Origin: a virus
Taxonomy: Duplodnaviria; Heunggongvirae; Uroviricota; Caudoviricetes
Length of the DNA: 64,000 nt
Direction: 5' to 3' (one strand)
Virus record (IMG/VR): IMGVR_UViG_2529293038_000017
Location: 23,342-87,341 of that record
Shown here: one piece after another, positions 1,670-8,603 of the stretch
Layout: every line of letters starts with the position of its first letter
Position numbering within the stretch: position 1 is the first letter of the stretch
Position numbers and translations under genes: made by a program
The notes under the pieces: model-generated
Told to the model about the DNA's origin: nothing
Databases searched by the model: none
Seen by the model: the letters and a program-made list of their open reading frames with translations, nothing else

Positions 1670-2272
1670 TTAATTTCCTGCTTTCAGTTGCTTAAGACGG
1701 CGTTTGAGTTCGCCATTTCGGGCCTTTTCGTTATTGAGTCGGCCTGTCTCCTTATCCAGCTTCGCTCGCAAATCAGTGATCTGCTGTTGATTGAAAGACA
1801 CCGAGTTCTGCGCTGATTTATAAGCGGCAACCACCTGAGCATTCCGCTGTTTTGCCTCTTGCAGGCGCTGAAAGTTGGATTTTACTGCCGGTTTCTTGTC
1901 TACCGGATTGGCAACACGTTTCGCTTTGGCGATCAGTGATTTCTGGAATTTTGCGGAGTTTTTGCGGGCCGCTTGCCCCATGACGGTACCAAGCGTCTTG
2001 ATATCCGGCGATTGAGCGTTAGGAATAGCTTTTCCATTCAGCCTCACAGACGATATATCGCCAGTATCGTTTACCTGTATGGCAAGAATTTGTCCGTCGT
2101 TAAGAACCAGCTTTGCGGTTTTAACTTTAACGCCATCTTTCGTTGTTGCGCGGTTGCTGGAGTCAACCTCAATTACCGTAACACCGGTTTTATTGATCGC
2201 CGCGATAAGGGATTTCAGCCCCTTTTCATTAACCTGGTCAAAATCGACCGTTGCATACTTATTTTTCGTCAT
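1670..2272 (-). CDS. coiled-coil protein, Hdf-like by position (about 200 aa)
   Basis: ORF 1670..2281; start moved to second ATG (MTKNKYA) with AGGA 8 nt upstream; Lys/Gln-rich coiled-coil C-terminus; coupled to upstream gene. Confidence 0.5.
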   Translation of the reverse strand: MTKNKYATVDFDQVNEKGLKSLIAAINKTGVTVIEVDSSNRATTKDGVKVKTAKLVLNDGQILAIQVNDTGDISSVRLNGKAIPNAQSPDIKTLGTVMGQAARKNSAKFQKSLIAKAKRVANPVDKKPAVKSNFQRLQEAKQRNAQVVAAYKSAQNSVSFNQQQITDLRAKLDKETGRLNNEKARNGELKRRLKQLKAGN

Positions 2273-2702
2273 CTGACACATCCTGTGCGAGATTTATTAC
2301 GTAACTTCTGCGGATTTGCTGAGTAACAGGGAAAATCCGATACAACGGGTTAATGAACGAGTCGCCATGCGTAACCATGACGTTGAAATGCCACAGTCGC
2401 TCTCCTTTACCCATATATTCAGTGGGTATGTACAACCATTCACTGTTTTCGCCCTGTTCAGCCGACGTCAAACAACGTTGTTCGCCTTCAATCACTGTCG
2501 TCGGCTTCTGAACATCGCGGATCCAATATCTGACCGTTGCGCCGCGCAAAAACGGGAATTTAGACCGGTATTTGAACGGCACCCGGATGAAACCCGGTTT
2601 AATTTCCACATCACCAAGTTCTAAATGCGTGATGTCCTTGCGTTTTAGCAAATAGCGATCGGCTAAGGCTAACGCAAGAACGCATACACCCCAGCCAATC
2701 AT
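2259..2702 (-). CDS. soluble 147-aa protein in lysis-gene cluster (LydB-like antiholin candidate)
   Basis: ORF in track; ATGA start/stop overlap with upstream holin-like gene; function from context only. Confidence 0.4.
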   Translation of the reverse strand: MIGWGVCVLALALADRYLLKRKDITHLELGDVEIKPGFIRVPFKYRSKFPFLRGATVRYWIRDVQKPTTVIEGEQRCLTSAEQGENSEWLYIPTEYMGKGERLWHFNVMVTHGDSFINPLYRIFPVTQQIRRSYVINLAQDVSDDEK

Positions 2703-3028
2703 TTCCCGCCTCCCTTTTTCACCAAACTTGTAAGAACATTCAGAATGCTATCGATATTCACTCGTTTCATCCCTGAAATCACCTCATGACCGTTATTGCT
2801 GGCTATCGTTACCATTAAGTACGTAATTGATAACTCCCAGCCCTCGTGTTGCCCCAATAGGTACGCCACCGCGCCAGCTGTCACTGCAACAAAGATCTCC
2901 GTAACCAATCCCAACAAATTGCCAGACTGGCGACCGTCTCGGACATCCATCAGGAACGTGCCTATCCCACCAATTACTGAAAGCAGGAGCGCAATAGCAA
3001 CTGGAGCTAATTCCTGTGTGTCAAGCAC
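2699..3028 (-). CDS. holin-like membrane protein (LydA-like)
   Basis: 109 aa with hydrophobic helices (AIALLLSVIGGIGTFL, IFVAVTAGAVAYLLG) and charged C-terminus KKGGGK. Confidence 0.5.
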   Translation of the reverse strand: MLDTQELAPVAIALLLSVIGGIGTFLMDVRDGRQSGNLLGLVTEIFVAVTAGAVAYLLGQHEGWELSITYLMVTIASNNGHEVISGMKRVNIDSILNVLTSLVKKGGGK

Positions 3029-3102
3029 AAGTTCCCTCCTACGTTGTCAGGAGGTAATGGTATGCAAAGTAACTTCTCAACCGGTTATGTTGCATAAGAG
3101 AC

Positions 3103-3366
3103 TTACCTATTCAACCGACTTTTGGAACCTTCAATAATAAGCCTGCTATTGGCGCTGAAAATAAGAACCATGCAGCTCTGAAGGCTTTCATTCATATCCT
3201 TATATTCCGCGAGATACATGCCAATAAAGCCAGCAAGTACGGCGGAAATACATTCGGCCAGCAATTTCTTGCATGAAGACTCGTAACGGTTTTCACATAG
3301 CCCACTCAAATACGAATACACCCCACCAAGAAGGGATAACATCACGATATGTACATAAAATGTCAT
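3103..3366 (-). CDS. small membrane protein (87 aa)
   Basis: ORF in track; two hydrophobic segments; first gene of the minus-strand lysis/dar operon. Confidence 0.4.
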   Translation of the reverse strand: MTFYVHIVMLSLLGGVYSYLSGLCENRYESSCKKLLAECISAVLAGFIGMYLAEYKDMNESLQSCMVLIFSANSRLIIEGSKSRLNR

Positions 3367-3493
3367 TTTTTACCTATACAACAGTAAGTTGAACAACATC
3401 TGAGAACGGTATGCACTTTGTGATTTCCACACACACTGGTTTTGTTAATTAAAACCTGTAGCTTGCAATAAATAACGATAGTGGGCAGAAAAT

Positions 3494-3670
3494 ATGCTAA
3501 TAGGCTATGTACGCATATAGACAAATGAACAAAACACAGCTATGCAGTGAAAAGCACTTGAAAGCGCAGGATGTGAGCTAATTTTTGCGAATAAGGCGAG
3601 CAGCAAAAAGGCTGGGCACCCTGGGTTAAAAAAGGTTCTGCGTATGCTTTCCAGAGGTGATACCCTAGTC
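3494..3670 (+). pseudogene. remnant of a second serine DNA invertase (Cin/Gin/Hin family) N-terminus with in-frame stops
   Basis: Reads MLIGYVRI*TNEQNTAMQ*KALESAGCELIFANKASSKKAGHPGLKKVLRMLSRGDTLV, aligning to the Cin N-terminus in this window (MQIGYIRVSTNDQNT...GDTLVVWKLDRLGRS); the catalytic Ser codon is TAG; homology ends at 3670. Confidence 0.65.
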
Positions 3671-3801
3671 TCGGGCTAGGGACAACATTTCGAGGACAGT
3701 TTTCATTAGCGGTCAGCAGGCGCTAGATACATCGAATTGATGTGCCGCGCGATAAATGTACCTATTCTATCAAGATAAATTACACCGACGCGGCATTAGA
3801 A

Positions 3802-4374
3802 TTACAGCTCAGATTGAGTTTGGCGCTTCTCTACAGGATGATAACGATAAATCGTCGATACACCGATATCGTAAATAATTGCCAACTGTTTCCTGCTGTA
3901 GCCATTTTCGATCAACCTCGCTATTTGCTCATGTTGTTCTTTTGTCAACTTCGGGCGACGTCCGCCAATGCGTCCCTGTTCGCGTGCAGCTGCCAGTCCG
4001 GCCAGTGTTCTCTCAACAATTAATTCACGTTCCATTTCTGCTAAAGCCCCCATGACGTGAAAAAAGAAACGCCCCATGGGTGTTGATGTGTCAATACTGT
4101 CTGTCAGACTACGGAAATTAACACCTTTTTCCCGCAACTCCTCTATAAGCGTGATAAGGTGTTTCATACTTCTGCCAAGCCTATCCAGCTTCCAGACAAC
4201 CAGCGTATCTCCTTCTGATAACGTTCTGAGCAGCTTTTTCAAGCCTGGTCTGGCTGACTTTGTTCCGCTTATTTTATCTTCAAAAATCAGTTCACATCCT
4301 GCGCAGTTCAGTGCATTTCTTTGTAAATCTGTGTTTTGGTCATTTGTTGACACACGAATGTAGCCAATTTGCAT
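3802..4374 (-). CDS. cin: Cin-type serine DNA invertase
   Basis: IGYIRVSTNDQ catalytic motif, LDRLGRS, C-terminal HTH; start set to ATG 4374 (AAGAGG 9 nt upstream) rather than track TTG at 4383; adjacent to invertible fibre segment. Confidence 0.9.
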   Translation of the reverse strand: MQIGYIRVSTNDQNTDLQRNALNCAGCELIFEDKISGTKSARPGLKKLLRTLSEGDTLVVWKLDRLGRSMKHLITLIEELREKGVNFRSLTDSIDTSTPMGRFFFHVMGALAEMERELIVERTLAGLAAAREQGRIGGRRPKLTKEQHEQIARLIENGYSRKQLAIIYDIGVSTIYRYHPVEKRQTQSEL

Positions 4375-4427
4375 GAAAAACAACCTCTTTGTTTAGTTAA
4401 AAATACATCGTTGGTATAGGTAGGGAT

Positions 4428-4453
4428 TAAGACTAAAACGTTGGTTTGGGAGA
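4428..4453. other. cix-like crossover site (left boundary of invertible segment)
   Basis: TAAGACTAAAACGTTGGTTTGGGAGAA; right half is reverse complement of left half of the site at 6010..6035; hix/gix-like AAACC-NN-GGTTT core. Confidence 0.5.
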
Positions 4454-4943
4454 AGGCTCTGCATTACCTGTTGGTGTCCCTGTTCCGTGGCCTTCAGCCA
4501 CTCCGCCAACAGGCTGGCTGAAATGCAACGGTGCGGCTTTTTCTGCTGAAGAATACCCGGAACTGGCAAAGGCTTACCCGACAAATAAATTGCCTGATTT
4601 ACGTGGTGAGTTCATTCGTGGCTGGGATGACGGGCGCGGGATTGATCCAGGTCGCTCTATTTTAAGCGAGCAAGGATATGCAACGGAGGATCATGCTCAC
4701 GGATTACCGTCAAAATCAACCGTAGCAACTGACAGCTCAATTAATTTCTACTTTGACGAGGCATGGGCTACTAGTGGTAATACGGGAGTTATCAGATGGG
4801 GGAACACAAGCGATGCAGGATTGCCAGCCCCTAATTATGGAACTTTTAAAACATATAAACAGTCCGTAGCTAATTTAGGTACTGCTGGCTTAGAAACCCG
4901 CCCTCGTAATATTGCATTTAATTATATTGTGAGGGCGGATTAA
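4446..4943 (+). CDS. silent alternative tail-fibre C-terminal cassette (Sv'-like); expressed only after inversion fuses it to the S constant part
   Basis: N-terminal ~65 aa (GEGSALPVGVPVPWPSATPPTGWLKCNGAAFS...DLRGEFIRGWDDGRG) and C-terminal ETRPRNIAFNYIVRA are shared with the S C-terminus on the opposite strand; middle differs. Confidence 0.6.
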   Translation: MGEGSALPVGVPVPWPSATPPTGWLKCNGAAFSAEEYPELAKAYPTNKLPDLRGEFIRGWDDGRGIDPGRSILSEQGYATEDHAHGLPSKSTVATDSSINFYFDEAWATSGNTGVIRWGNTSDAGLPAPNYGTFKTYKQSVANLGTAGLETRPRNIAFNYIVRAD

Positions 4944-4948
4944 TTATA

Positions 4949-5560
4949 TCAACTGGCTGTAGAAAGTTGTTTTTCAGGCCAGTTGAGATCTGGTGCCGTG
5001 GTTAAATCCATCGCGTTCAGCTCGTCTATATAATCTAGCACGGAGTTAAGCTGCGTGGTTTCTGCCTGCGTCAACTTCCGTCCAGCCCGTAATTTCAACT
5101 GAATCAGACTAATGGAATCCATCGCAGTATCAATCAATGACTGACGTTTTGTTTCTGCTGCCTCTACAGCTGCACTATGTTGAGCCTCAGTATCAACCAC
5201 CCATTTCTCTCCATCCCATTTGTCGTATGGTGTTAGCGGGGCGATAGTGGTTGTATTTTCCGGATAGTCACCCAACACCGTGATTTCTTCGGGATTCCCT
5301 GTGTCAATGCTATAGACAGTTTCGCCACGATGATCTGGCACATACTCCCATGAACTTAAATCCTCTGAACGGAGAATCGCATAACCTGCTTTATGTGAGC
5401 CTGGAGCATCCAAACAAGAATGTGCCGGAATACCAACGCCAACAGCAAGATATTCAGTTGATGCAGAAATATATTCCCGATTACCACCATCATAGTTATA
5501 AACGATAATGTTTCCTGCCTGTATGGCTATAAGTTCGCTATTTAATATCGCATTATCCAT
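4949..5560 (-). CDS. tail fibre assembly chaperone (U/Tfa-like)
   Basis: 203 aa; start overlaps S stop (TAATG); Tfa-type C-terminus (VLDYIDELNAMD); lies inside the invertible segment. Confidence 0.75.
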   Translation of the reverse strand: MDNAILNSELIAIQAGNIIVYNYDGGNREYISASTEYLAVGVGIPAHSCLDAPGSHKAGYAILRSEDLSSWEYVPDHRGETVYSIDTGNPEEITVLGDYPENTTTIAPLTPYDKWDGEKWVVDTEAQHSAAVEAAETKRQSLIDTAMDSISLIQLKLRAGRKLTQAETTQLNSVLDYIDELNAMDLTTAPDLNWPEKQLSTAS

Positions 5561-7239
5561 TATGCTGCTCTCACAATATAATTGAAGGCAATGTTACGTG
5601 GGCGGGTTTCATTCCCCCCAGATAACTCCGTTCTGTATTGACTGGTAAATTTACCATTAATCGCTCCTTCTTGGACGGCGTTATCTGTCGACAACAGGCT
5701 ATCCCCCCCTCTGTCATTTGGCACCAATACCGTGTTATCCCACGCGTCCCATGACCGAATATTATGATAATGACTTCCTGTTAACCACCCCTGTATGCTT
5801 AAGATGACCCTTCCCGCATCCACACCTCGCCCATCATCCCAACCACGGATAAACTCACCGCGTAAATCAGGTAATTTTAACGTTGGGTAAACCTTTGCCA
5901 GATTTGGGTACTTTTCAGAAGAAAATGCTGCTCCGTTACATTTCAGCCACCCCGTTGGTGGTGTGGCTGAGGGCCATGGAACAGGTACACCAACGGGCAG
6001 CGCCGAGCCTTCCCCTAAACCAAGGTAATTAAGAACGCTCTGAATACTGGGCTTACTAAGAATTGCACGTCCAACACTTGTCAGTGCAGTTAACGCGGCA
6101 CGATCAACCCCTGTGAAATAAGGGAGTTTATCTGCTGCGGTAGCTAGTGCCGCTAGAGCAGTGAGCGTAGCGTCTGCCGCTTGCTTTCCATTAGCCAAAT
6201 CATATGCAGCCTTGACAGCTTTCGGTGTAGCGGCCAGCACTTCAGACGTGCTGTTAGTGGCACTACTGAGCTGAGTGATGCCTTTCGCTGTCAATGAAGC
6301 TGTTGGCACACCAGTAATCTGATTCCAGGGATGTGTATGACTGGATGGTGCCTTTCCGGCTGCTAGATCGTATGCAGCTTTAACCGCTTTTGGCGTTGCA
6401 GCTAATGTTTCAGAAGTGCTGTTGGTGTCGCTACTGAGCTGAACTATCCCTTTTTGTGTCGTGGTTGCATCCTGGGCTGTATACTTCCCGTTAGCCAGGT
6501 CATATGCAGCCTTGACAGCTTTCGGTGTGGCGGCCAGCACTTCAGACGTGCTGTTAGTGGCACTACTGAGCTGAACTAATCCCTTTTGCGTTGTGCTTGC
6601 ATCCTGCGCCGTATACTTGCTTTTCGCCAGATCGTAGGCTTTTTTAACTGCCAGCGAACTCGCAGCAACATCACTTCTGGTACTGGTTACAGAGTCTGAA
6701 ATATCAATGCCGATCGTGCGGTTGATACGCTCGGATGTATCAATCATCTCTTGAGTAATGGTAGATACGCCAGCAGGGATATTCACCGTACAAACCAGCA
6801 GTTCCCCATCACCTAACTGATATGAATCGGTATAGGTTCTGGCAACAAATTCAGCTGCATGAATATGTGACGCGGTATTCACCTGATAGGTATCTTCTCC
6901 AAGAAGGTATCTTCCCTTCAGCACAATTGCATATTTCTTGCCTGCGTTAAGTGCAAGAGAGATATCCTTACGATGCTGAATAGTTACCTGGTAGAATTCA
7001 CCAATATCCACTGACGCCGCGCCAGCGGTTTTATCTCCATCCACTGAGGTGATTAACAGGTTCATCCCACCGCCAGGCTTAGGCAAGAAACCAGCATAAA
7101 ATCCCGGGTCAACAATTCCCCTGAATTTTCGGTTTAGAGCGGCTGACAGATATGGTTCGTGGTATTGCACATCAGCCACCAGAGCCAACGACTCGGGTGA
7201 TGGGTAAGTAACCGATGTAACAACTGTAACGTCATTCAT
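5560..7239 (-). CDS. tail fibre protein S (constant part plus currently expressed variable part)
   Basis: Repeated fibre motifs (KAVKAAYDLA..KYTAQDA.TTQKG.VQLSS.TNSTSE, 3-4 copies), C-terminal NETRPRNIAFNYIVRA; start set to ATG 7239 (AAGGA upstream, just after R stop) rather than 7326. Confidence 0.8.
   Translation of the reverse strand: MNDVTVVTSVTYPSPESLALVADVQYHEPYLSAALNRKFRGIVDPGFYAGFLPKPGGGMNLLITSVDGDKTAGAASVDIGEFYQVTIQHRKDISLALNAGKKYAIVLKGRYLLGEDTYQVNTASHIHAAEFVARTYTDSYQLGDGELLVCTVNIPAGVSTITQEMIDTSERINRTIGIDISDSVTSTRSDVAASSLAVKKAYDLAKSKYTAQDASTTQKGLVQLSSATNSTSEVLAATPKAVKAAYDLANGKYTAQDATTTQKGIVQLSSDTNSTSETLAATPKAVKAAYDLAAGKAPSSHTHPWNQITGVPTASLTAKGITQLSSATNSTSEVLAATPKAVKAAYDLANGKQAADATLTALAALATAADKLPYFTGVDRAALTALTSVGRAILSKPSIQSVLNYLGLGEGSALPVGVPVPWPSATPPTGWLKCNGAAFSSEKYPNLAKVYPTLKLPDLRGEFIRGWDDGRGVDAGRVILSIQGWLTGSHYHNIRSWDAWDNTVLVPNDRGGDSLLSTDNAVQEGAINGKFTSQYRTELSGGNETRPRNIAFNYIVRAA
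6010..6035. other. cix-like crossover site (right boundary, inside S)
   Basis: TTCCCCTAAACCAAGGTAATTAAGAA; inverted relative to 4428..4453; ~200 bp of ~80% identical inverted sequence flank both sites inward. Confidence 0.5.
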
Positions 7240-7250
7240 CAAGCATATCC

Positions 7251-7685
7251 TTATGCTGTAGTCGAGTTTATGGCCATAACTGCGGTATATGTTTTGCCCA
7301 CATACAGCGAGTCTTCCTGGACACAAATAATGGCGATTGGCTTATTCTCGTTATCCAGAACAACCAGAGTGTTGAATGGGTAGTTTTTCCCTTCCTGCAA
7401 CTGACTTTGATCAAGGTCCATTCGGACAGTAATTATCCCGCCTGAGTAGGTTGGGACGAGGTTGATGGTGCAAAATTGACTGGTCAGTTCTGCCAGATCG
7501 AAAGCCTTTGGCAGTTCTCCAATCTCATAAGTGCCATCTCCTTTCTTAGTAACCAGTGAACTGGTACCGAAAACGGCCTTGCTGATTAAAAATCGAGAGC
7601 CTTTGTTAATGGACGATTCAGCGCGCCGCTGATAGTAATAGTCCAACAACTGACTCTTATAGAGGTTTGTTGAGACGTCAGACAT
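7251..7685 (-). CDS. tail fibre/baseplate-associated protein (R-like, 144 aa)
   Basis: ORF immediately upstream of S in the same operon. Confidence 0.5.
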   Translation of the reverse strand: MSDVSTNLYKSQLLDYYYQRRAESSINKGSRFLISKAVFGTSSLVTKKGDGTYEIGELPKAFDLAELTSQFCTINLVPTYSGGIITVRMDLDQSQLQEGKNYPFNTLVVLDNENKPIAIICVQEDSLYVGKTYTAVMAINSTTA

Positions 7686-7763
7686 GATTTTCCCTAATCA
7701 ATGTTGTGAAGCCTCATTGTAAGATAAGTAACTTGTCACCCCGCCCTGCGGACGGGGTGATTG

Positions 7764-8603
7764 TCACGCATCGCTATCCAACAGCAAATCATCTGCGCGG
7801 GTGCGATCAAACGTAGGCGTTGCTTTCACAATAGTGCCGCCCGGCGTTGCAGTGATCGGGGCGTTAATCGACGTAACTTCAGTAAGCGAAGTTGTATCCG
7901 AAGTTTCAAACCAGCAGAATGCTTTTTCGGTATCAGAAATCTCATTCAAAGTGATCATGTCGGCCTGTTCATTTACAACAACCGACAAATAGAGCGTAAG
8001 CCCATCAAACACTATATGCAGTGGCAGTAGAGGCTTTACGAACTGATTAAACTTTCTGAGAATTTCTTCTGTAATTGCGGACTGATCTATCGTTCCAGTA
8101 ATACCCATTGTCCGGGCCAGGTCGTTTATGGGAATACTGATCATTCCTCTGGAAGTCAGAAACATCTCGCCGAATGTGCCGCCGGTGGTTTCCAGTGTGC
8201 TTTCTGGAATCAGGACCGTGCCATAGGGATGACGTTCAAAGTCCACCGGAGCATATATTGGATCCCATAAAACCGATATACCGTTAAATTCGCGATAAAT
8301 TGTCTGGTTTATAGGGCGTTCAGTACCCTTAAAATGGATCTCATCAAACCGCTGTTGTAACAACATCGGAACGGAAGATGAATTCGACGTTCTGATAGTA
8401 AAAAACTGGCCAAGTTCATTTGTCCTAGTCTCCAGATCCTCCTTGCTCATGGAGAAAATAGACTTCCGGTTGGTAATTCGCTCCAACCATGGGTCAACAA
8501 AGGTGTCCATCATTGACTGAACCAAATCAGCCAATGATTTATAAAGTAATGACTTTTGCTTAGCTGATGTAAGCCGGTTATTAAACCAGGAACGCTGCAT
8601 CAC
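7764..8603 (-). CDS. baseplate/tail structural protein (279 aa)
   Basis: ORF in tail operon; ATGA overlap with upstream gene. Confidence 0.45.
   Translation of the reverse strand: MMQRSWFNNRLTSAKQKSLLYKSLADLVQSMMDTFVDPWLERITNRKSIFSMSKEDLETRTNELGQFFTIRTSNSSSVPMLLQQRFDEIHFKGTERPINQTIYREFNGISVLWDPIYAPVDFERHPYGTVLIPESTLETTGGTFGEMFLTSRGMISIPINDLARTMGITGTIDQSAITEEILRKFNQFVKPLLPLHIVFDGLTLYLSVVVNEQADMITLNEISDTEKAFCWFETSDTTSLTEVTSINAPITATPGGTIVKATPTFDRTRADDLLLDSDA

What the first reader, a model, noticed from the sequence alone, without database searches (positions are those of the whole stretch)
3494..3670. Stop-riddled remnant of a second DNA invertase gene next to cin, on the opposite strand
The plus strand reads MLIGYVRI*TNEQNTAMQ*KALESAGCELIFANKASSKKAGHPGLKKVLRMLSRGDTLV, collinear with the N-terminal ~60 aa of the intact Cin in this window. 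The catalytic serine codon is TAG and homology stops abruptly at 3670. This marks a past module exchange or nested insertion at the invertase/fibre locus and may explain the unusual one-chaperone segment.
Basis: seen in the sequence. Interest (0 to 1): 0.5.

Follow-up and report, generated by a model that had tools for sequence, protein, structure and literature searches.

The report
Dead cin relic beside Min invertase
This is a real but dead fragment of phage P1's own tail-fibre switch gene (cin), left behind when the whole switch was swapped for a different one that came from the end of a Mu-like jumping phage; the same relic sits at the same place in plasmid p15B, so it is ordinary.

Summary
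Window 3494-3670 (+) reads as the first 59 codons of a serine DNA invertase, with TAG at the catalytic serine and TGA at codon 19.

The labels need swapping. The relic is the resident P1-type cin:
- It is 90% identical in DNA to P1 cin, including 89 nt of cin upstream sequence.
- It has the same position after lydC and the same orientation as in P1.

The intact neighbour (3802-4374, -) is a Min-type invertase, not Cin.

P1 homology stops at 3670 and resumes at 6493 inside tail-fibre gene S, so 2.8 kb replaced P1's 5.3 kb cin/C-segment module. Coordinates in the P1 GenBank notes map base for base onto plasmid p15B (X62121). I recall the p15B relic being published as psi-cin in 1991-92, but could not read those papers.

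The relic is in 160 of 5,426 complete E. coli genomes, always with both stops, and was unannotated in every listed record. Its lineage-specific changes are spread evenly over codon positions, as in neutral decay.

One further detail: 3738-3801, just beyond the min stop, is the terminal 64 nt of a Mu-like transposable phage end. The incoming module therefore came from the invertase end of such a phage. The one-chaperone layout is native to those phages.

The parts
3103..3366 (-). lydC (holin homologue). Last conserved P1-backbone gene to the left of the relic.
   Evidence: ORF list. Annotated LydC in the identical phage record vB_EcoM-813R1. Collinear with P1 lydC.
3405..3493 (+). Relic of the cin promoter, 5' UTR and ribosome-binding region (P1 31570-31659). 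The predicted P1cin -10 hexamer TAAAAT reads TAAAAC here, and one T of the spacer is lost.
   Evidence: blastn alignment with P1. P1 annotation of the predicted promoters P1cin and P2cin. No sigma-70-like site found by the scan.
3424..3449 (.). Weak quasi-crossover site, homologous to the P1 sequence that overlaps the predicted P1cin -35 hexamer. Not significant on its own.
   Evidence: Scores 12 of 20 against the Din crossover consensus, versus 15-16 for the two real sites in the window. 65 window positions score 12 or more.
3494..3670 (+). psi-cin: codons 1-59 of a P1-type cin. Stops are TAG at 3518-3520 (catalytic Ser9) and TGA at 3548-3550 (Arg19), and there are 8 further amino-acid changes.
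3515..3529 (.). Position of the proximal Fis-site core of the cin enhancer (cin nt 22-36). It carries 3 changes, all in columns invariant in 7 functional invertase genes.
   Evidence: Enhancer coordinates come from the P1 annotation. Placement of the Fis cores is from my own knowledge of the Hin/Gin/Cin enhancers.
3564..3578 (.). Position of the distal Fis-site core (GCGCAGGATGTGAGC). Unchanged from P1.
3671..3682 (.). 12-nt filler at the joint (TCGGGCTAGGGA). Together with 3663-3668 it forms a 6-bp inverted repeat, CCCTAG...CTAGGG, across the junction.
   Evidence: Sequence. Only loosely alignable to the equivalent nucleotides of L006.
3683..3737 (.). 55-nt spacer of unknown origin. It is shared at 77% with the D6-like plasmid lineage and found nowhere else.
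3738..3801 (-). Terminal 64 nt of a Mu-like transposable-phage end, with the terminus at 3738. Read inward it is TGATGTGCCGCGCGATAAATG.... It carries a GATAAAT motif at 3751-3757 and again at 3775-3781, and a terminator-like hairpin for min at 3796-3782.
   Evidence: Three chromosomal prophages in different host genes are alike up to this TG and unrelated beyond it. 15 of 19 terminal bases match the phage Mu right end. Gene content, TG..CA ends and an ATTAAA target duplication are seen in L019. Terminator scan.
3802..4374 (-). Intact Min-type serine DNA invertase (190 aa plus stop).
   Evidence: Pfam Resolvase 2-144/145 plus HTH_7. Exact match to UniRef Q05517 'DNA-invertase'. Differs by 1 residue from the pJIE250-3 invertase, which PMC6906374 gives as 98.5% identical to p15B Min.
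4429..4454 (.). Left crossover (mix/cix-type) site.
   Evidence: Scores 15 of 20, second best in the 64 kb window. Lies at the start of the 230-nt inverted repeat.
4446..4943 (+). Alternative tail-fibre C-terminal segment (Sv'), currently silent.
   Evidence: ORF. Inverted repeat with the in-frame Sv part of S.
4949..5560 (-). The single tail-fibre assembly chaperone (U/Tfa).
   Evidence: ORF. Annotated as TfaE-like in the related phage record.
5560..7326 (-). Tail-fibre gene S. The variable part runs up to the right crossover site. P1-type sequence resumes from 6493 leftward in gene sense.
   Evidence: ORF. blastn against P1: 6493-10398 matches P1 37095-41000 at 97%.
6010..6035 (.). Right crossover site.
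   Evidence: Scores 16 of 20, the best in the window.

Best explanation
Window 3405-3670 is the decayed 5' stump of the element's original P1-type cin gene: promoter region plus codons 1-59. I recall it being named psi-cin in plasmid p15B.

An ancestral P1-like phage-plasmid had the P1 order: lydC, cin (rightward), C-segment, then S (leftward). Its cin 3' two-thirds, the whole C-segment and the C-terminal part of S (5.3 kb in P1) were replaced by a 2.8-kb foreign cassette. That cassette carries a Min-type invertase reading the opposite way and its own invertible tail-fibre segment.

The cassette came from the invertase-proximal end of a Mu-like transposable phage. Its last 64 nt, including the terminal TG and a repeated GATAAAT motif that could be a transposase-binding site, still sit just beyond the min stop codon. 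A further 55-67 nt of unidentified DNA follows.

The right joint lies in a repeated motif of S and is probably a homologous crossover. The left joint, inside cin, shows no homology and is probably illegitimate.

The stump has since drifted neutrally and does nothing. It cannot make a recombinase: the catalytic serine and Arg19 are stops, more than half of the catalytic domain and the whole DNA-binding domain are missing, the predicted -10 hexamer is damaged, and one of the two Fis cores of the enhancer is mutated.

Shown: the homology, the boundaries, the decay pattern, the p15B collinearity and the Mu-type terminus. Inferred: the order of events, the type of recombination at each joint, and the lack of function.
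For: 1. Identity of the relic. 3405-3670 matches P1 31570-31836 at 240/267 with 1 gap, and matches the neighbouring min at only about 76% over 94 nt. In protein it is 83% identical to P1 Cin and 63% to Min.

2. Synteny and boundaries. 2145-3670 is collinear with P1 30300-31836. P1 homology resumes at 6493, equal to P1 37095, at 97%. That point falls in repeat element a1 of Sc.

3. Collinearity with p15B. The P1 GenBank notes give p15B 7147..7408 for P1 31570..31832 (89%, 1 gap), p15B 6463..6533 for the cin enhancer, and p15B 7728..8294 for lydA. The single mapping p15B = 10813 minus window coordinate reproduces all three with no indel.

4. Neutral decay.
- Functional cin alleles differ mostly at third codon positions: P1 vs P7 4/0/10, P1 vs D6 1/0/16.
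- Differences between the relic and P1 fall 5/4/10, with 10 non-synonymous and 6 synonymous codons. The 15 changes unique to the relic fall 5/4/6.
- 6 of its 13 changes in nt 1-100 hit columns invariant in 7 functional invertase genes.

5. Spread. Full-length copies at 98.4% identity or better occur in 147 PLSDB plasmids, 2 phages and 160 of 5,426 complete E. coli genomes. The copies examined share both stops and the junction.

6. The relic is not tied to an inversion system. Other P1-like plasmids keep shorter or longer cin stumps next to fixed tail-fibre genes with no invertase at all (L003-L005).

7. Mu-type end.
- Three chromosomal prophages carry an invertase gene about 90% identical in DNA as their last gene. 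They lie in or next to different host genes: a SWIM-domain gene, gsk and fepE.
- They are alike up to TGATGCGCCGCGCG and unrelated beyond it. The window and L006 carry the same terminus.
- L019 is a 37.5-kb element that splits its host gene. It has DDE transposase, ATPase, Gam and Mor genes, TG..CA ends, GATAAATG at the same offset at both ends, and an ATTAAA duplication.
- 15 of 19 terminal bases match phage Mu.
- Collinearity between window and prophage runs from 3735/3738 to about 4667 at 86-90%.
Against: - 55-67 nt (3671-3737) between the cin stump and the Mu-type terminus match nothing, so a simple 'phage transposed into cin' model is incomplete.
- No P1-like plasmid carrying a whole Mu-like prophage was found as an intermediate.
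- The same cassette end abuts cin nt 177 in this lineage and nt about 307 in the D6-like lineage. Each stump is of its own lineage's cin type, yet both share the G22A change. One event or two cannot be decided.
- Lack of function is inferred from sequence only. The distal Fis core is perfectly kept, and the stump is retained in every copy seen.
- The name psi-cin and its original description rest on my memory. The 1991-92 papers are not in the library.
Confidence: 0.85

Rival explanations
1. The stump is kept because it still works in cis. It could act as a promoter that sends transcripts convergently into the 3' end of min, as a Fis-binding half-enhancer that modulates Min inversion, or as part of the regulatory region of the divergent lydC gene.
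For: - Every P1-like plasmid examined that lost cin still keeps the lydC-cin intergenic region plus at least 57 nt of cin.
- P7 annotates a C1 operator for lydC just upstream of cin.
- The distal Fis-like core at 3564-3578 is unchanged from P1.
Against: - Stump lengths differ widely: 57, about 150, 177, about 230 and about 307 nt. The shortest cuts through the enhancer.
- Stumps persist next to fibre genes that have no invertase.
- The proximal Fis core has 3 changes in invariant columns, and the predicted -10 hexamer lost its final T.
- No sigma-70-like site and no Rfam family was found.
- Differences among copies are scattered across all sub-regions.
- Codon-position spectrum looks neutral.
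Confidence: 0.1
2. The fragment is a partial inverted duplication of the 5' end of the neighbouring intact invertase, that is, a paralogue made locally rather than the older resident gene.
For: It lies within 135 nt of the neighbour's 3' end and shares 63% of its residues with it.
Against: - DNA identity to the neighbour is only about 76% over 94 nt, against 90% over 267 nt to P1 cin.
- The match to P1 continues into 89 nt of non-coding cin upstream sequence that min lacks.
- Position and orientation are those of cin in P1.
Confidence: 0.01
3. The stops are sequencing or assembly errors in a short but otherwise translatable ORF, or the similarity is chance or low-complexity.
For: None beyond the short length.
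Against: - Copies at 98.4-100% identity occur in 147 plasmids and 160 complete genomes from independent projects, and the five read in full carry the same two stops.
- E-values range from 5e-26 to 2e-102.
- The Pfam match is above the gathering score.
- The reading frame ends for good at 3670.
Confidence: 0.01

Closest known systems
psi-cin of plasmid p15B (E. coli 15T-), next to the Min multiple-inversion system. Sandmeier, Iida, Arber and co-workers, Nucleic Acids Res 1991 and J Bacteriol 1992, GenBank X62121. Papers recalled from memory; coordinates taken from the P1 GenBank notes.
   Same: - Same place (between lydC and min), same orientation and same start of P1 homology (P1 31570).
- Same 1 gap, same 89-90% identity, same end (P1 31832-31836).
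- Exact base-for-base spacing to lydA and to the min enhancer.
   Different: As I recall, p15B has a 3.5-kb region with six crossover sites. This window has a 1.6-kb segment with two sites and one chaperone.
cin of phage P1 (Din family: Cin, Gin, Hin, Pin, Min)
   Same: 90% DNA identity over the promoter region and codons 1-59. Same genomic position and orientation. The position of the recombinational enhancer lies inside the stump.
   Different: Truncated after codon 59, with two stops and 8 further amino-acid changes. It has no catalytic serine, no C-terminal HTH domain and no adjacent cix site.
Right end of phage Mu and Mu-like (BcepMu-like layout) transposable prophages, with Gin-type invertase and G-segment at the end
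   Same: - Order is tail fibre, invertible segment, invertase, then phage terminus, with the invertase reading outward.
- Terminal TG, and 15 of 19 terminal bases match Mu.
- An invertase gene about 90% identical in DNA is the last gene of E. coli chromosomal prophages.
   Different: Only the last 64 nt of the end survive here. There is no transposase, no second end and no target duplication. Mu itself has com and mom between gin and the end.
Other cin stumps in P1-like plasmids (pVPS18EC0801-3, pEC258-2, A1_181 p_unnamed2, pEc-050-T0_3). pSvP1 and pTZ20_1P have a 'partial invertase orf' or 'delta-cin' according to PMC6906374.
   Same: A 5' piece of cin is left after replacement or deletion of the tail-fibre switch.
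   Different: Breakpoints differ (codons 19, 49, about 74, about 102). The partner DNA differs too: fixed fibre genes, IS26, or the same Min cassette in a D6-type backbone.

Membership tests
Functional Din-family serine DNA invertase (Cin/Gin/Hin/Pin/Min) | Complete resolvase-type catalytic domain | tested here: not met
   The stump covers Pfam Resolvase positions 2-68 of 145 only. The neighbour Min covers 2-144.
Functional Din-family serine DNA invertase (Cin/Gin/Hin/Pin/Min) | Catalytic serine (Ser9 of Cin) within an uninterrupted reading frame | tested here: not met
   TCA has become TAG at 3518-3520. A second stop, TGA, lies at 3548-3550.
Functional Din-family serine DNA invertase (Cin/Gin/Hin/Pin/Min) | C-terminal helix-turn-helix DNA-binding domain | tested here: not met
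   Homology ends at codon 59. No HTH_7 match in the stump, whereas Min has one.
Functional Din-family serine DNA invertase (Cin/Gin/Hin/Pin/Min) | Fis-dependent enhancer inside the 5' coding region, with two intact Fis cores | tested here: inconclusive
   The distal core is identical to P1. The proximal core has 3 changes in columns invariant among 7 functional genes. Fis binding cannot be tested here.
Functional Din-family serine DNA invertase (Cin/Gin/Hin/Pin/Min) | Crossover (cix-type) site adjacent to the gene | tested here: not met
   The best site in 3367-3801 scores 12 of 20, which is background. The real sites at 4429 and 6010 score 15 and 16.
psi-cin of p15B | 5' cin fragment between the lyd genes and min, on the strand opposite min, about 89% identical to P1 31570-31832 | tested here: met
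   The window matches P1 31570-31836 at 89.9% with 1 gap. The p15B coordinates in the P1 record map onto the window with the single formula 10813 minus w for psi-cin, the min enhancer and lydA.
psi-cin of p15B | Direct sequence identity with GenBank X62121, and the published description | not testable with these tools
   X62121 is in none of the collections. The 1991-92 papers are not held.
Mu-like transposable-phage end | Independent insertions are alike up to a terminal 5'-TG and unrelated beyond it | tested here: met
   L015, L016 and L017 lie in three different host contexts. The window and L006 carry the same terminus.
Mu-like transposable-phage end | Element has transposase/ATPase/Gam/Mor genes, TG..CA ends and a short target duplication | tested here: met
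   Met for the chromosomal relative L019: 37.5 kb, splits a SWIM-domain gene, ATTAAA on both sides. In the window itself only one end fragment exists, so this holds by homology only.
Mu-like transposable-phage end | Terminal sequence similar to phage Mu attR | tested here: met
   TGATGCGCCGCGCGATAAA against TGAAGCGGCGCACGAAAAA, 15 of 19.

The most novel reading that the evidence does not exclude
The Min tail-fibre switch of p15B-type P1-like phage-plasmids was captured from the invertase end of a Mu-like transposable phage. The cassette still carries the phage's terminal 64 nt, plus 55-67 nt of foreign flank. That flank may be host DNA of the kind Mu-type virions carry on their ends.

Under this reading psi-cin is the illegitimate left joint of that capture. 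The same cassette end abuts two different cin breakpoints in the P1-type and D6-type lineages. So the cassette either entered twice or moved between lineages using the cin stump and S as homology arms. I found no paper in the library that says this, but the older literature could not be read.
Probability: 0.6. Interest if true: 0.4.

Novelty: already known. Interest (0 to 1): 0.27.

Why it matters
The relic is a small, datable scar showing how tail-fibre host-range modules are swapped between unrelated temperate phages, here a P1-like plasmid prophage and a Mu-like transposable phage. It occurs in about 3% of complete E. coli genomes. It was unannotated in every window-type record listed, and the neighbouring invertase is easily mislabelled Cin. 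The stump and the S gene give P1-type and p15B-type elements two homology arms for further exchange of the whole switch. It has no functional consequence of its own that I can see.

Tried and rejected
- Rfam scan of 3300-3900 at E of 1 or less: nothing.
- Sigma-70 promoter scan of 3300-4500: no site on either strand.
- Search for a relic crossover site in the stump region: only a background-level quasi-site.
- Origin of the 3671-3737 spacer: no match in phages. In E. coli genomes it matches only inside P1-like plasmids. No match in the rest of this window, P1, D6, P7, Mu or the Mu-like prophage. A conserved-pattern scan of 185,579 species genomes found one further P1-like contig only.
- Intermediate with a whole Mu-like prophage in a P1-like plasmid: the transposase region is on 11 plasmids, none of P1-like size.
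- Literature: searches for p15B, psi-cin and truncated cin found only Venturini et al. 2019 (PMC6906374). It notes the reversed Min-like invertase in pJIE250-3 but not the stump. The P1 genome paper and the Sandmeier papers are not held.
- Local duplication of min's 5' end: rejected on identity.
- One acquisition event versus two: left undecided.

Full report

Yes.

| Comparison | Result |
|---|---|
| BLASTP vs the intact invertase at 3805-4374 (-) | 37/59 identical, E = 5e-26 |
| Pfam Resolvase N-terminal domain | positions 2-68 of 145, 37.1 bits, cut-off 23.3 |
| tblastn vs P1 Cin residues 1-59 | 83% identical |
| DNA vs P1 | 240/267 identical, E = 2e-102 |

The catalytic serine codon is TAG (3518-3520) and Arg19 is TGA (3548-3550). 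The five other copies read in full have the same stops and the same end, so it is not an error.

**2. What the fragment is**

The DNA match to phage P1 is not confined to the coding part.
- Window 3405-3670 equals P1 31570-31836 at 90% with one gap. This takes in 89 nt of the cin upstream region, with the predicted P1cin promoter and the ribosome-binding site, plus cin nt 1-177.
- Identity to the neighbouring intact invertase is only about 76% over 94 nt.
- The whole stretch 2145-3670 is collinear with P1 30300-31836: hdf, lydB, lydA, lydC, then cin pointing right.

So the stump is the element's own, original cin, in P1's place and orientation.

The intact gene on the other strand is not Cin.
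- It is 74% identical to P1 Cin.
- It is an exact match to UniRef Q05517 'DNA-invertase'.
- It differs by 1 residue from the invertase of pJIE250-3. That plasmid is 100% identical to the window over 3367-3801. Venturini et al. report its invertase as 98.5% identical to Min of p15B and 'in reverse orientation' (PMC6906374).

**3. Extent of the replacement**

P1 homology stops at 3670 and resumes at 6493, which equals P1 37095, at 97%. That point lies inside the repeated element a1 of the constant part of tail-fibre gene S. P1's 5.3 kb (the cin 3' part, the C-segment with Sv', U', U and Sv, and the end of Sc) is replaced by 2.8 kb. The replacement contains:
- min
- two crossover sites (4429-4454 and 6010-6035, the two best matches to the Din crossover consensus in 64 kb)
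- a silent Sv'
- one chaperone gene
- the expressed Sv

**4. Already on record**

The P1 GenBank record carries three relevant notes:
- P1 31570..31832 is '89 pct identical (1 gap)' to p15B X62121 7147..7408.
- The cin enhancer region matches p15B 6463..6533.
- The lydA region matches p15B 7728..8294.

With the single mapping p15B = 10813 minus window coordinate, these give window 3405-3666, 4280-4350 (nt 25-95 of min) and 3085. All fit exactly, with no indel over about 1.3 kb. The window therefore has the p15B arrangement.

From memory, Sandmeier, Iida, Arber and colleagues (1991-92) described this truncated 5' invertase fragment next to min as psi-cin. They also concluded that the Min and Cin regions sit at equivalent positions. 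I could not read those papers here.

The window-type stump was unannotated in every listed record. The D6-type stump is marked as a pseudogene by PGAP.

**5. Is it decaying neutrally?**

Differences by codon position (1st/2nd/3rd) over cin nt 1-177:

| Comparison | 1st/2nd/3rd | Non-synonymous codons |
|---|---|---|
| P1 vs P7 (both functional) | 4/0/10 | 2 of 13 changed |
| P1 vs D6 (both functional) | 1/0/16 | 3 of 16 changed |
| Stump vs P1 | 5/4/10 | 10 of 16 changed |
| Changes unique to the stump (15) | 5/4/6 | not counted |

- Six of its 13 changes in nt 1-100 hit columns invariant among seven functional invertase genes, including Mu gin.
- In the relic promoter, the predicted -10 hexamer TAAAAT has become TAAAAC and a spacer T is lost.
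- The promoter scan finds nothing, and Rfam finds nothing.
- By my placement of the two Fis cores of the enhancer, the distal one (3564-3578) is intact. The proximal one (3515-3529) has three changes, including the outer G.

**6. Prevalence and relatives**

Full-length copies at 98.4% identity or better are found in 147 PLSDB plasmids, two Punavirus genomes and 160 of 5,426 complete E. coli genomes.

Other P1-like plasmids keep cin stumps of other lengths:

| Locus | Stump extent | What follows |
|---|---|---|
| L005 | codon 19 | fixed fibre genes, no invertase annotated |
| L004 | codon 49 | a glycine-rich-domain protein gene; no invertase annotated |
| L003 | about codon 74 | fixed fibre genes, no invertase annotated |
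| L006, L014 (D6-like) | about codon 102 | the same Min cassette |

A 5' cin stump is thus a recurrent scar of tail-fibre module replacement. It does not depend on a working inversion system.

**7. Where the incoming cassette came from**

The 131 nt between the stump and the min stop are not P1-like. Chromosomal E. coli prophages carry an invertase gene about 90% identical in DNA. In them that gene is the very last gene, 77 nt from the prophage end.

The prophages lie in different host contexts: inside a SWIM-domain gene, next to gsk, and inside fepE. The three are alike up to TGATGCGCCGCGCGATAAATG and unrelated beyond it. The window (from 3738) and L006 carry the same terminus.

One of these prophages, L019, shows the full set of transposable-phage features:
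- It is a 37.5-kb element that splits its host gene.
- It has DDE transposase, AAA ATPase, Gam and Mor genes.
- It has TG..CA ends with GATAAATG at the same offset at both ends.
- It has ATTAAA on both sides.

Its terminus matches phage Mu's right end at 15 of 19 bases.

Window and prophage are collinear from 3735/3738 through min and the first crossover repeat at 86-90%. The prophages have the same Sv'(+)/tfa(-)/Sv(-) order, some with several crossover repeats. So the Min cassette derives from the invertase end of a Mu-like transposable phage, and the 'one-chaperone' layout arrived with it.

**8. What remains unexplained**

- 3671-3737 (a 12-nt filler plus a 55-nt spacer) matches nothing outside P1-like plasmids.
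- The spacer is shared with the D6-like lineage at only 77%, the phage end at 82-85% and the stump at 80%. The min ORF is about 99% identical between the two lineages. The joint is therefore old, and min has been exchanged or homogenised more recently.
- The two stumps are of their own lineage's cin type, yet both share the G22A change. One capture followed by deletion and arm-mediated transfer, or two separate captures, both fit.
- No P1-like plasmid with a whole Mu-like prophage was found.

**9. Verdict**

This is a genuine, dead, truncated cin, already present in the p15B sequence and (by my recollection) published as psi-cin. The Mu-type phage end beside it is a modest extra that explains the orientation of min, the sharp left joint and the segment layout.

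Noticed in passing
window 4893-4944 and 5559-5610, flanking 4949-5560: The single chaperone gene is bracketed by 52-nt inverted repeats (85% complementary). These are the conserved 3' ends of Sv' and Sv. After inversion of the whole segment, the chaperone would face away from the S'-type fibre gene, so how Sv' gets a chaperone is unclear.
   Followed up: partly
L003 2590-2800, L004 2591-2737, L005 2591-2647: Three other P1-like plasmids carry cin stumps with different breakpoints. Fixed tail-fibre genes follow in L003 and L005, and a glycine-rich-domain protein gene follows in L004. No invertase is annotated in any of them. L003 and L004 share derived changes and a deletion, so they stem from one event.
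   Followed up: partly
L006 2503-2871 and L014 1188-1365: D6-like plasmids have a longer, more decayed D6-type cin stump (nt 1 to about 307, with 2-nt and 9-nt deletions). It abuts the same spacer, Mu-type end and Min cassette. PGAP annotates it as a frameshifted partial recombinase pseudogene.
   Followed up: yes
L002 4936-5507 (phage vB_EcoM-813R1): In this otherwise near-identical phage the Min-type invertase is split by a frameshift and annotated as Hin1 and Hin2. Its first residues read MLIGYVRV (Cin-like) instead of MQIGYIRV, which hints at gene conversion from a cin-type sequence.
   Followed up: no
window 6184-6615; L002 7473-9416: The constant part of S holds three 132-nt repeat units here. 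The related phage 813R1 has many more copies, and its S gene is annotated in fragments. The right boundary of the replaced module coincides with the start of the P1-type unit at 6484-6493.
   Followed up: partly
window 3663-3681: A 6-bp inverted repeat, CCCTAG(7 nt)CTAGGG, straddles the exact point where cin homology ends (3670/3671). It could be chance or a trace of the joining event.
   Followed up: no
L019 81 and about 37626 (E. coli FEA3 chromosome): A complete 37.5-kb Mu-like prophage whose early genes read toward one end and whose late genes read toward the other, from a central divergence point. It has P2-type tail genes, a multi-site invertible fibre region and an apparent 6-bp target duplication. 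About 33 chromosomal places in complete E. coli genomes carry this end.
   Followed up: partly
window 3515 and L006 equivalent (cin nt 22): The stumps of the P1-type and D6-type lineages share the G22A change (Val8 to Ile). It is absent from all seven functional invertase genes compared.
   Followed up: no
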